Source: Escherichia coli O157:H7 | Lineage (GTDB): Bacteria; Pseudomonadota; Gammaproteobacteria; Enterobacterales; Enterobacteriaceae | NCBI RefSeq assembly: GCF_013167455.1 | Contig: NZ_CP038328.1 | Strand: one strand, 5' to 3' | Length of the DNA: 64,000 bases | In this document: piece by piece, positions 9,772-10,454 of the stretch | Position numbering within the stretch: position 1 is the first letter of the stretch | How the letters are laid out: each line of letters begins with the position of its first letter | The notes under the pieces: model-generated | Told to the model about the DNA's origin: nothing | Database searches by the model: none | The model's input: only the letters and a program-made list of their open reading frames with translations | Program-made: the position numbers and the translations under genes

Positions 9772-9784
9772 GTCAAAACCGACG

Positions 9785-9814
9785 CCAAAAGCGTCGGTTT
9801 TTTCATGGCTATAC
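9785..9814 (+). terminator. Intrinsic terminator after aaeB
   Basis: hairpin ccgacgc-caaaa-gcgtcgg followed by TTTTTT. Confidence 0.75.
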
Positions 9815-9862
9815 TTAGCGATGCACGGCAGAACTCGCCGCGAAACGTGACGGTGGCAACAG

Positions 9863-10135
9863 ATGAATATTTATACCTTTGATTTTGATGAGATTGAGAG
9901 TCAGGAGGATTTTTATCGTGACTTTAGCCAAACCTTTGGTCTGGCGAAAGATAAGGTACGCGATCTCGACTCACTATGGGATGTGTTAATGAACGATGTC
10001 CTGCCGCTACCACTTGAGATTGAATTTGTTCATCTGGGAGAGAAAACGCGTCGCCGTTTTGGCGCGTTAATATTGCTGTTTGATGAGGCAGAGGAAGAGC
10101 TGGAAGGGCATTTGCGTTTTAATGTTCGTCATTAG
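9863..10135 (+). CDS. yhcO: Barstar-like ribonuclease-inhibitor family protein YhcO
   Basis: 90-aa acidic protein ([21 protein letters not shown]...) recognised as YhcO; no barnase-like partner ORF nearby. Confidence 0.8.
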
Positions 10136-10136
10136 C

Positions 10137-10163
10137 GCAAAAAAAAGCCCCCGAACCGGGGGC
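10137..10163 (-). terminator. Intrinsic terminator after yhcN, in the yhcO/yhcN convergent spacer
   Basis: hairpin gcccccgaaccgggggc with an A-run on the plus strand, which is a U-run for the minus-strand transcript. Confidence 0.7.
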
Positions 10164-10190
10164 AATATCGTCGGACAAGACGATGAGGGT

Positions 10191-10454
10191 TTATTTGTAC
10201 AGTTCAGCCGTAGCGTGCCAGGTGTCACCGCTACGAGCTTCAGTAATCTGGTAGGCCGTTGCGCCTTTCTCTTCCGCTTTTTTGTTCAGCATTTCACGCA
10301 TATCCATTGGCGAAGACGCCACACCACTTACGGATACGGTCCCGATTGCTTCACGATTTTGTGCTTGTGCAGCATCAATGGAGTCGGCAGCGAATGCACC
10401 GAAAGAGAGAACAGAAAGTACGCTTAATGCAGCAACAGTGGTTTTGATTTTCAT
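10191..10454 (-). CDS. yhcN: Small secreted stress protein YhcN (DUF1471, BhsA/McbA family)
   Basis: 87 aa; signal peptide MKIKTTVAALSVLSVLSFGAFA; start trimmed to ATG at 10454. Confidence 0.8.
   Translation of the reverse strand: MKIKTTVAALSVLSVLSFGAFAADSIDAAQAQNREAIGTVSVSGVASSPMDMREMLNKKAEEKGATAYQITEARSGDTWHATAELYK

What the first reader, a model, noticed from the sequence alone, without database searches (positions are those of the whole stretch)
9863..10135. Orphan barstar-like inhibitor gene (yhcO) with no cognate toxin nearby
YhcO is a 90-aa acidic protein of the barstar (barnase-inhibitor) family. The flanking genes are the aaeXAB efflux operon and the secreted stress protein yhcN, and no barnase-like or other secreted RNase ORF is present in any frame. 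An immunity-type gene without its toxin is worth noting as a possible orphan immunity gene or a protector against an RNase encoded elsewhere.
Basis: partly seen in the sequence, partly recalled or inferred. Interest (0 to 1): 0.3.

Follow-up and report, generated by a model that had tools for sequence, protein, structure and literature searches.

The report
Barstar gene that outlived its barnase
yhcO is a known E. coli gene for a barstar-type RNase inhibitor, and it is what remains of an ancestral secreted-RNase/inhibitor gene pair whose RNase gene was deleted in the ancestor of the Enterobacteriaceae, while the inhibitor was kept under selection with an altered binding face.

Summary
Window 9863-10135 (+) is yhcO of E. 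coli O157:H7: 90 aa, pI 4.5, identical to PDB 2CX6. It matches Pfam Barstar above threshold, has the barstar fold, and occurs in 5425 of 5426 complete E. coli genomes. No barnase-type gene was found in the window, in any complete E. coli genome by DNA search, on Enterobacteriaceae plasmids, or in phages.

The missing partner is explained by gene loss. In Yersiniaceae and some Hafniaceae the same position downstream of aaeXAB (with or without an aldehyde dehydrogenase gene) holds a secreted barnase homolog. It ends a few bases before the yhcO ortholog. Of 80 related loci, 72 have this pair. Only the Enterobacteriaceae lack barnase entirely, and two other lineages show barnase decaying beside an intact inhibitor.

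The orphan is not decaying (pN 0.08-0.23, pS 0.41-0.86). The positions matching barstar Tyr30, Gly31, Asn33 and Ala36 never vary in barnase-linked homologs, except one Phe-to-Tyr change. They are replaced or variable in the orphans, which also gained a loop residue. Asp36, Asp40 and Trp39 are kept. A conserved sigma-S-type -10 element precedes the gene.

The gene is already annotated. Its origin is a modest new insight, and its present target is unknown.

The parts
9863..10135 (+). yhcO coding sequence (90 codons plus stop), encoding a barstar-family protein
   Evidence: ORF. Identical to PDB 2cx6. Pfam Barstar 37.6 bits. AF2 model pLDDT 96, TM 0.80 to barstar 1brs_D. RefSeq annotation.
9965..9982 (+). 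Codons 35-40 (L-D-S-L-W-D): the acidic core of helix 2, equivalent to barstar L34-D35-A36-L37-W38-D39
   Evidence: L35, D36, L38, W39 and D40 are invariant in 22 orphan and 55 barnase-linked homologs. S37 replaces an Ala that is invariant in all linked homologs.
9953..9958 (+). Codons 31-32 (K-V), which replace the F/Y-G dipeptide found in every barnase-linked homolog (barstar Y30-G31)
   Evidence: Linked homologs: F 71 and Y 1 of 72, G 72 of 72. Orphans: K/R/Q and V/I.
9809..9817 (+). CTATACTTA, a candidate sigma-S-type -10 promoter element for yhcO, 46-54 nt upstream of the ATG
   Evidence: It is the only invariant block in the otherwise divergent aaeB-yhcO spacer of E. coli, Salmonella and three Klebsiella species. 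The same 8-mer follows aaeB in 24 loci across Enterobacterales, ahead of aldH, barnase or yhcO. yhcO is reported as RpoS-dependent in O157:H7 (PMC2907692). The match to the sigma-S -10 consensus rests on my own knowledge.
9775..9803 (+). Intrinsic terminator of aaeB (11-bp stem, 5-nt loop, U tract). It separates yhcO from the aaeXAB operon.
   Evidence: RNA fold -16.7 kcal/mol, z = -6.8. Sequence shown.
9852..9856 (+). GGTGG, a weak Shine-Dalgarno-like element 6 nt upstream of the ATG
   Evidence: Read directly from the sequence. This is an inference only.
10147..10163 (.). GC-rich hairpin shared by the convergent genes yhcO and yhcN. The T-run lies on the yhcN strand.
   Evidence: Terminator scan. 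Folds at -15.1 and -14.8 kcal/mol on the two strands.
9772..9862 (+). The 91-bp aaeB-yhcO spacer. This is where related genera carry aldH and/or the barnase gene. No remnant of barnase is left here.
   Evidence: tblastn with five enterobacterial barnases gave no match here on the + strand; the only overlapping hit is a 19-aa minus-strand segment at E = 1.1, and the best hit anywhere in the window is E = 0.32. Synteny comparison.

Best explanation
yhcO is the surviving inhibitor half of an ancestral chromosomal gene pair. That pair encoded a secreted guanyl-type RNase (a barnase homolog) and its cytoplasmic inhibitor (barstar). It lay downstream of aaeXAB, behind an aldehyde dehydrogenase gene and a conserved sigma-S-type promoter element.

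In the common ancestor of the Enterobacteriaceae (Escherichia, Salmonella, Citrobacter, Klebsiella, Enterobacter, Leclercia) the barnase gene was cleanly deleted. Escherichia, Salmonella and Klebsiella later lost aldH as well. This left yhcO as a single-gene unit between the aaeB terminator and the hairpin it shares with yhcN.

The inhibitor gene did not decay. It has remained under purifying selection and is a core gene of E. coli.

Its barnase-docking face has changed. The positions equivalent to barstar Tyr30, Gly31, Asn33 and Ala36 do not vary among barnase-linked homologs, apart from one Phe-to-Tyr change at the first. In the orphans all four are replaced or variable. The positions equivalent to Thr42 and Gly43 have become variable, and one residue has been inserted in the following loop. 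The acidic core (Asp36, Asp40, Trp39, and Glu75-Glu79 on helix 4) is retained.

Shown: the gene's identity, fold, orphan status, positional orthology with barnase-linked genes, the loss of barnase, purifying selection, and the interface changes.

Inferred: YhcO still works as a small acidic protein that plugs a basic RNA- or phosphate-binding site, as barstar plugs barnase with Asp39. Its present target is no longer the ancestral self-made barnase. My split for the present role is about 0.45 a new partner, about 0.35 foreign barnase-type RNases, and about 0.2 something else.
For: Identity and fold.

Core-gene status: 5425 of 5426 genomes.

Absence of barnase:
- Nothing annotated near the gene and no remnant in the window.
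- Serratia barnase DNA, and eight other enterobacterial barnase genes, find nothing in 5,426 E. coli genomes apart from yhcO itself.
- The 58 plasmid hits are all from Bacillus, Clostridium, Proteus, Acetoanaerobium or Aerococcus. There are no phage hits.

Orthologous pairs elsewhere:
- 72 of 80 related loci have an ORF 55-62% identical to Bacillus barnase and binase that ends within about 50 nt (mostly within about 20 nt) of the yhcO homolog's start.
- Two of these ORFs were checked and match PF00545 at E about 1e-15.
- K27, R59, E60, E73, R83, R87, H102 and Y103 are invariant in all 72. 65 of 72 have an N-terminal hydrophobic leader.

Shared synteny:
- aaeR and aaeXAB lie upstream in Serratia, Yersinia, Rahnella, Ewingella and Edaphovirga.
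- An aldH ortholog (72-77% identical) lies directly upstream of barnase in those lineages. It lies directly upstream of yhcO, with a 30-46 bp gap and no barnase, in Enterobacter, Leclercia, Citrobacter koseri and L082.
- Salmonella has the same arrangement as E. coli.

Tree: the orphan clade nests inside the Enterobacterales barstars.

Independent barnase decay beside an intact inhibitor: L037 and L064.

Selection: pN 0.08-0.23 against pS 0.41-0.86 among orphan genera, and dN/dS 0.04-0.20 where it could be computed. This is similar to the linked clades.

Interface changes: with barstar contact residues taken from PMC4207830.

Expression and phenotype:
- RpoS-dependent (PMC2907692) and LldR-activated (PMC10272880).
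- A conserved -10-like element.
- Deleting STM3363, which that paper describes as a Barstar-like-domain protein, increases swarming (PMC4534456). That STM3363 is the Salmonella yhcO ortholog is my inference; no call checked it.
Against: - No biochemical data on YhcO binding or inhibition exist in the literature I could search, so the present function is inference.
- The E. coli genome searches were at DNA level and detect only about 65% identity or more. A very divergent barnase-fold toxin domain in some strains would have been missed.
- Enterobacteriaceae sampling was limited to seven named genera plus two unnamed lineages, so the loss is placed on the family stem by parsimony only.
- The scan pattern required [FKY][GV]xNLD[AS]LWD, which biases which homologs were recovered.
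- The downstream flank is not syntenic: darP-pmbA in Serratia and Yersinia against yhcN-argR in E. coli. A rearrangement therefore accompanied or followed the loss.
- The fixed differences in the orphans are inherited from one ancestor, so they count as one event rather than 22.
Confidence: 0.8

Rival explanations
1. Active orphan immunity. YhcO is retained because it still neutralises barnase-type RNases made by other bacteria. These could be secreted barnases from Serratia, Yersinia, Hafnia, Proteus, Bacillus or Clostridium, or barnase-domain effectors delivered by T6SS, Rhs or CDI systems. This would give the whole family innate protection.
For: The DxxxD pair, Trp39 and the acidic helix 4 are invariant. 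Purifying selection is strong. Barnase genes are common in neighbouring Enterobacterales families, and all their barstar-contact residues are invariant. Barstar domains do serve as immunity proteins in polymorphic toxin and CDI systems (PMC3482391; PMC4725963). Expression in stationary phase would fit competition.
Against: Five positions that are invariant or nearly so in 55 thinned barnase-linked barstars from several phyla (F30, G31, N33, A36, T42) are replaced or variable in the orphans, and a loop insertion was gained. That pattern is not expected if barnase were still the selective agent. Free secreted barnase has no known route into a Gram-negative cytoplasm (own knowledge). No characterised CdiA-CT structure belongs to the barnase subfamily (PMC9086364). 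No barnase-domain toxin was found in E. coli genomes or on Enterobacteriaceae plasmids.
Confidence: 0.3
2. The cognate RNase is encoded elsewhere in the E. coli genome, and yhcO protects against it.
For: None found. The idea rests only on the fact that the gene is retained.
Against: Nine enterobacterial barnase genes used as DNA queries find nothing in 5,426 complete E. coli genomes. Nothing was found in the 64-kb window at protein level. None of the best 120 of 563 barnase homologs in a 5.8-billion-protein database is named as from Escherichia, Salmonella or Klebsiella. To my knowledge E. coli K-12 has no PF00545 protein.
Confidence: 0.04
3. Non-functional relic. yhcO is a leftover that is merely slow to decay.
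For: The toxin is gone. Some interface positions have become variable. The function is unknown.
Against: The reading frame is intact in every Enterobacteriaceae genus examined, although synonymous sites are saturated (pS up to 0.86), and pN/pS is 0.10-0.37. The gene is present in 5425 of 5426 E. coli genomes. It has a conserved promoter element, regulated expression and a reported deletion phenotype for the Salmonella Barstar-like-domain gene STM3363, which I take to be the yhcO ortholog.
Confidence: 0.03
4. The reverse history. yhcO was ancestrally solitary, and barnase was inserted next to it in the other Enterobacterales families.
For: The downstream flank differs between the two groups, so the locus has been rearranged.
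Against: Barnase followed by barstar, in the same order and spacing, is also found in Paenibacillus, Bacteroidota and Leptotrichiaceae. The orphan clade nests within the linked ones. Partial barnase remnants next to intact barstars (L037, L064) show that the process runs in the direction of loss.
Confidence: 0.03

Closest known systems
Barstar of Bacillus amyloliquefaciens (Pfam PF01337; PDB 1BRS, 1A19), the intracellular inhibitor of the secreted RNase barnase
   Same: Same fold: TM 0.80 and rmsd 2.0 A over about 90 columns. Same length, about 90 aa. Acidic. Same helix-2 core L-D-x-L-W-D, with Asp36 and Asp40 equivalent to barstar Asp35 and Asp39, and Trp39 equivalent to Trp38. An acidic helix 4 equivalent to Glu76 and Glu80.
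   Different: Only about 20% sequence identity. No adjacent barnase gene. The equivalents of Tyr29, Tyr30, Gly31, Ala36, Thr42 and Trp44 are changed, and one residue is inserted after helix 2. Inhibitory activity has not been tested.
Barnase-barstar gene pairs of Yersiniaceae, Hafniaceae, Morganellaceae, Budviciaceae and Erwiniaceae (for example Serratia marcescens L007 5534-6300 and Yersinia pestis L023 5511-6270)
   Same: The inhibitor genes are the closest relatives of yhcO outside the Enterobacteriaceae, at 48-57% identity. In Yersiniaceae they sit at the same aaeXAB(-aldH)-linked position, preceded by the same CTATACTT element after aaeB.
   Different: These loci still carry an intact secreted barnase homolog, and their inhibitors keep the invariant F-G-x-N-L-D-A-L-W-D motif. 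Their Pfam Barstar score is higher (57.8 against 37.6 bits).
Orphan immunity genes of polymorphic toxin, CDI, Rhs and T6SS systems (Imm-Barstar in Zhang et al. 2012, PMC3482391)
   Same: An immunity-type gene without its toxin, belonging to a family (Imm-Barstar) that is used in such systems.
   Different: yhcO is not in a toxin or immunity array or an island. It is not strain-variable but a single-copy core gene at a fixed housekeeping locus. It descends from a simple secreted-RNase pair rather than from a delivered polymorphic toxin.

Membership tests
Barstar family (Pfam PF01337 / Imm-Barstar) | Sequence match to the family profile above the curated threshold | tested here: met
   PF01337 at E 2.1e-9, 37.6 bits against a cut-off of 23.4, covering residues 1-81. 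NCBIfam has no model that hits.
Barstar family (Pfam PF01337 / Imm-Barstar) | Barstar alpha/beta fold (three parallel strands and four helices) | tested here: met
   The AF2 model (pLDDT 96.1) has strands at 2-7, 51-56 and 84-88 and helices at 14-24, 35-43, 60-65 and 67-79. Foldseek gives TM 0.99 to crystal 2cx6 and 0.77-0.81 to barstar chains 1brs_D, 1b3s_D and 1a19_A, rmsd about 2 A.
Barstar family (Pfam PF01337 / Imm-Barstar) | DxxxD acidic pair on the binding helix (barstar Asp35 and Asp39), with the adjacent Trp | tested here: met
   D36, D40 and W39 are invariant in alignment A1 and in 22 orphan plus 55 linked homologs. The motif is named as family-defining in PMC3482391.
Barstar family (Pfam PF01337 / Imm-Barstar) | Adjacent gene for a barnase-family RNase (PF00545), in toxin-then-immunity order | tested here: not met
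   No such gene in the window or in E. coli genomes. The feature is met at the related loci of 72 of 80 species scanned, including the syntenic Yersiniaceae loci.
Barstar family (Pfam PF01337 / Imm-Barstar) | Full docking motif [FY]-G-x-N-L-D-A-L-W-D, as found in all barnase-linked members | tested here: not met
   E. coli has [11 protein letters not shown] is replaced by K, G by V, N by D and A by S, and one residue is inserted after the helix.
Barstar family (Pfam PF01337 / Imm-Barstar) | Tight stoichiometric inhibition of a barnase-type RNase | not testable with these tools
   No biochemical report on YhcO was found. The function is stated as unknown in PMC10272880.
Orphan immunity gene of a polymorphic toxin system | Located in a toxin or immunity cassette array or mobile island, with strain-variable presence | tested here: not met
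   Single copy between aaeB and yhcN in 5425 of 5426 genomes. The neighbours are housekeeping genes. GC content of 45% in the 300-bp bin 9800-10099, which covers most of the gene, with no island signature.
Type II toxin-antitoxin module | Antitoxin co-transcribed with an intracellular toxin, and an antitoxin with a DNA-binding domain | tested here: not met
   No partner ORF. Terminators lie on both sides. Barstar is the only domain. In relatives the ancestral partner carries a secretion leader.

The most novel reading that the evidence does not exclude
After losing its barnase, YhcO was not merely kept. It was re-tooled, with a new invariant Pro48, Val32, Lys31 and a longer loop beside the old acidic plug. 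It would now serve as a sigma-S-controlled inhibitor of a different basic-site protein: an endogenous RNase or RNA-binding factor, or a non-barnase BECR-fold toxin common among enteric competitors. That would make it a documented case of an immunity protein exapted into core stationary-phase physiology.
Probability: 0.35. Interest if true: 0.55.

Novelty: already known. Interest (0 to 1): 0.3.

Why it matters
yhcO is one of the E. coli core genes still listed as 'function unknown', even though two crystal structures exist. Three results turn a vague annotation into concrete experiments:
- It descends from a barnase-barstar pair at that very locus.
- The RNase gene was lost once, at the base of the Enterobacteriaceae.
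- The inhibitor has since been conserved with a specific set of interface changes.

The experiments that follow are to test binding to the Serratia or Yersinia barnases, to revert four residues, and to pull down the current partner.

The case also illustrates a general asymmetry: the toxin can be lost safely, but its inhibitor cannot be lost first. Two further lineages were caught mid-process. It also dates an immunity gene that has outlived its toxin across a whole bacterial family. The practical impact is modest.

Tried and rejected
- NCBIfam scan of YhcO: no family.
- Literature searches for yhcO, orphan barstar, and barnase in Serratia or Yersinia. These returned only transcriptome lists, an LldR gSELEX target, an RpoS list, a Salmonella swarming phenotype and an in-silico Klebsiella annotation. 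None gave a functional or evolutionary account.
- Search for barnase remnants in the aaeB-yhcO spacer and across the whole window: only noise, E 0.3 or worse.
- Search for barnase in E. coli genomes, plasmids and phages: negative.
- Sigma-70 promoter scan near yhcO: nothing upstream of the gene. I first looked for the CTAYRCT element within 200 bp upstream of barnase genes and mostly failed. A wider search then showed that it sits just after aaeB, ahead of aldH.
- The terminator scan missed the aaeB terminator, probably because A-U pairs extend the stem into the U tract. Folding confirmed it.
- I considered docking YhcO to a barnase with AlphaFold using a linker fusion. I did not run it because the tool returns no interface metrics, and only one job remained, which left no room for a positive control.
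- I considered a functional link to nearby rng (RNase G) or csrD, about 10-17 kb upstream. I found no evidence, and those proteins are unrelated to barnase.
- I considered a type II toxin-antitoxin reading and rejected it (see the membership test).
- Comparisons in which the orphans appear more conserved than linked homologs (for example helix 4) are confounded by the much greater depth of the linked set, so I did not use them as evidence.

Full report
**1.

- The window is E. coli O157:H7 chromosome. The 2.5 kb around the feature is 100% identical to several O157:H7 genomes and is present in 5425 of 5426 complete E. coli genomes.
- The ORF at 9863-10135 (+) encodes 90 aa.
- Its product is identical to PDB 2cx6 (E. 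coli YhcO) and 77% identical to Salmonella 5f4c.
- It matches Pfam Barstar above the curated threshold: 37.6 against 23.4 bits, E 2e-9.
- It is acidic, with pI 4.48.
- An AlphaFold2 model (pLDDT 96) superposes on barstar chains from barnase-barstar complexes with TM about 0.80 and rmsd about 2 A.
- RefSeq already calls it 'barstar family protein'. The literature calls it 'predicted barnase inhibitor' of unknown function (PMC10272880).

**2. It really is alone in E. coli**

- Annotation from 20 kb upstream to 30 kb downstream shows only housekeeping genes: tldD, aaeR, aaeXAB, yhcN, argR, mdh, degS, degQ and others.
- tblastn with five enterobacterial barnases against the whole window gives nothing better than E = 0.3. 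There is no real match in the 91-bp aaeB-yhcO spacer; the only overlapping hit is a 19-aa minus-strand segment at E = 1.1.
- blastn with Serratia barnase-barstar DNA against all 5,426 complete E. coli genomes matches only a 72-nt piece inside yhcO.
- A concatenation of eight further barnase genes (Yersinia, Hafnia, Edwardsiella, Proteus, Providencia, Erwinia, Photorhabdus, Pragia) finds nothing.
- tblastn against 72,556 plasmids finds barnase only in Bacillus, Clostridium, Proteus, Acetoanaerobium and Aerococcus records. It finds none in 50,697 phage records.
- None of the best 120 of 563 homologs of the Serratia barnase is named as from Escherichia, Salmonella or Klebsiella.

**3. Where the partner went**

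- An exhaustive HMMER search shows that the YhcO subfamily is narrow: 112 representatives at E <= 1e-3.
- I aligned full-length relatives (A1) and scanned one genome per species across 100,044 species. This returned 80 loci.
- In 72 of them an ORF of about 145-190 aa (a few longer) ends within about 50 nt, mostly within about 20 nt, of the yhcO homolog's start. It is 55-62% identical to Bacillus barnase and binase.
- The two ORFs I checked match PF00545 at E about 1e-15.
- All 72 keep K27, R59, E60, E73, R83, R87, H102 and Y103, and 65 have an N-terminal hydrophobic leader. They look like active, exported RNases.
- In Serratia, Yersinia, Rahnella, Ewingella, Rouxiella and Edaphovirga the pair lies downstream of aaeR and aaeXAB, the same upstream neighbours as in E. 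coli.
- In most of these lineages, and in Hafnia alvei, an aldehyde dehydrogenase gene sits directly upstream of barnase. In the aaeXAB-linked lineages it therefore lies between aaeB and barnase.
- Its ortholog (72-77% identity) sits between aaeB and yhcO, 30-46 bp from yhcO and with no barnase, in Enterobacter, Leclercia, Citrobacter koseri and an unnamed lineage.
- Salmonella and Klebsiella look like E. coli: aaeB, a short spacer, then yhcO.
- The ancestral order was therefore aaeXAB - aldH - barnase - barstar.
- By NCBI taxonomy the barnase-bearing genera belong to Yersiniaceae, Hafniaceae, Morganellaceae, Budviciaceae and Erwiniaceae (three genera were checked; the rest is my own knowledge).
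- All sampled Enterobacteriaceae lack barnase.
- In a neighbour-joining tree the orphan clade nests within the Enterobacterales barstars, on a somewhat longer stem.

**4. The direction is loss, and it recurs**

- 'Hafnia psychrotolerans' (L037) keeps only a 58-codon barnase remnant, in which the catalytic core has been deleted internally.
- Edwardsiella ictaluri (L064) keeps only the C-terminal 49 residues.
- In both, the inhibitor gene is intact and still has the linked-type motif.
- This fits the expected asymmetry: the RNase gene can be lost safely, whereas losing the inhibitor first would be harmful. This last point is inference.

**5. The orphan is maintained by selection, but its docking face changed**

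- Among Escherichia, Enterobacter, RIT714 and three Klebsiella species, synonymous sites are near saturation (pS 0.41-0.86) while pN is 0.08-0.23.
- Where dS could be computed, dN/dS is 0.04-0.20, similar to barnase-linked Serratia and Yersinia genes.
- I compared 22 orphan sequences with 55 linked sequences, both thinned at 90% identity. The table uses barstar numbering.

| Barstar position | Barnase-linked homologs (55) | Orphans (22) |
|---|---|---|
| Tyr30 | F in 54, Y in 1 | K 17, R 2, Q 2 |
| Gly31 | G in 55 | V 21, I 1 |
| Asn33 | N in 55 | D 15, N 7 |
| Ala36 | A in 55 | S 19, T 2, A 1 |
| Thr42 | T in 50 | M, T or I |
| Gly43 | G in 44 | G, S or N |

- One residue is inserted after the helix in all orphans; it is absent in 53 of 55 linked sequences. 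The next-but-one residue is an invariant Pro in the orphans.
- Leu34, Asp35, Leu37, Trp38 and Asp39 stay invariant in both groups.
- Asn33, Leu34, Asp35, Asp39, Thr42, Gly43, Trp44, Tyr29 and Glu76 are the barstar residues that make polar contacts with barnase in the crystal complex (Table 1 of PMC4207830).
- The linked set spans several phyla and the orphan set spans one family. Positions where the shallow orphan clade is the more variable are therefore robust evidence that a barnase-imposed constraint was lifted.
- From memory, Schreiber, Buckle and Fersht (1994) showed that barstar's binding-site acidic residues cost stability. If so, their retention argues that an acidic binding function is still selected. 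I did not verify this in the library.

**6. Gene anatomy and expression**

- aaeB ends in a strong intrinsic terminator at 9775-9803 (-16.7 kcal/mol, z = -6.8).
- yhcO and the convergent yhcN share a GC hairpin at 10147-10163.
- In the spacer, CTATACTTA (9809-9817) is the only block invariant among E. coli, Salmonella and three Klebsiella species.
- The 8-mer CTATACTT follows aaeB in 24 loci across Enterobacterales, ahead of whichever gene comes next: aldH, barnase or yhcO.
- To my knowledge it resembles the sigma-S -10 consensus, and yhcO is listed as RpoS-dependent in O157:H7 (PMC2907692).
- The ancestral aldH-barnase-barstar unit was therefore probably a stationary-phase operon, and yhcO inherited its promoter. 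This is inference.
- LldR also activates yhcO.
- Deleting Salmonella STM3363, described in that paper as a Barstar-like-domain protein and which I take to be the yhcO ortholog, increases swarming (PMC4534456).

**7. Interpretation**

- Firmly supported: yhcO is a genuine member of the barstar fold and family. Its barnase partner was deleted at the base of the Enterobacteriaceae. It has been retained as a functional, regulated core gene.
- Not resolved: what it binds now.
- The altered periphery, combined with the conserved acidic core, slightly favours a changed target (about 0.45) over continued protection against foreign barnase-type RNases (about 0.35).
- An RNase encoded elsewhere in E. 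coli is unlikely (about 0.04), as is neutral decay (about 0.03).

**8. Novelty**

- The gene, its family and its structure are already known, and its lack of a partner is implicit in the annotations.
- I did not find the locus-level origin, the recurrent loss of barnase or the specific interface remodelling in the searchable literature.
- This is a modest evolutionary insight that makes the function testable. It is not a new kind of system.

Noticed in passing
L037 5819-5995 ('Hafnia psychrotolerans') and L064 5843-5989 (Edwardsiella ictaluri): Barnase pseudogenes sit next to intact barstar genes. L037 has a 58-codon remnant that matches Ewingella barnase residues 25-46 and 120-149, with the core deleted. 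L064 retains only the last 49 residues. These are losses of barnase independent of the one in Enterobacteriaceae. The L037 genes resemble Ewingella more than Hafnia alvei.
   Followed up: partly
L002 4428-5954, L008 4411-5952, L082 3506-4960, L084 2501-3955, L085 2523-3971; L023 3818-5316: An aldehyde dehydrogenase gene (PF00171) lies between aaeB and yhcO in Enterobacter, Leclercia and Citrobacter koseri, and between aaeB and barnase in Yersiniaceae. It is absent from E. coli, Salmonella, Klebsiella and Serratia. In Yersinia pestis it is split into 387-aa and 112-aa ORFs, apparently by a frameshift.
   Followed up: partly
24 loci, e.g. L010 3844, L034 3973, L009 5310, L084 2456; window 9809-9816: The 8-mer CTATACTT recurs just downstream of aaeB across Enterobacterales families, regardless of which gene follows. 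This suggests an old, conserved stationary-phase promoter. Its activity has not been tested.
   Followed up: partly
L002 6345-6978, L003 6330-6955, L083 4333-4966; window 10191-10454: yhcN (YdgH/BhsA family) is present as two tandem paralogs in Klebsiella, Enterobacter, Leclercia and Salmonella, but as a single copy in the E. coli window and in Citrobacter koseri.
   Followed up: no
Loci L007-L081 (barnase ORFs against barstar ORFs): Enterobacterales barnases are 55-62% identical to Bacillus barnase and binase. Their partner inhibitors are only about 20-35% identical to Bacillus barstar. This is a striking rate asymmetry within a co-evolving pair, or a sign of horizontal transfer of the RNase.
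   Followed up: no
L005 (422-bp contig labelled Hydrogenophaga intermedia); L059 (labelled Enterobacter cancerogenus M004): L005 carries a Klebsiella-like aaeB-yhcO junction and is probably contamination. L059 carries a barnase-barstar pair laid out exactly like Erwinia sp. S63 (L041) and Pantoea sp. alder81 (L063). It is either mislabelled or a horizontally acquired second pair in an Enterobacter.
   Followed up: no
window 19757-21113 (-): dcuC, encoding the anaerobic C4-dicarboxylate transporter, is annotated as a frameshifted pseudogene in the matching O157:H7 genome.
   Followed up: no
window 10080-10427 (+): A 115-codon TTG-initiated ORF overlaps the 3' end of yhcO and runs antisense through yhcN. 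It is most likely a chance ORF and is not annotated in RefSeq.
   Followed up: no
proteins P0029, P0031, P0032 (137 aa): A few metagenomic gene calls join the first approximately 80 residues of YhcO to a C-terminal segment, and the product carries a precomputed LytTR (PF04397) hit. All come from short contigs (1-3 kb) and are probably miscalls or assembly artefacts.
   Followed up: no
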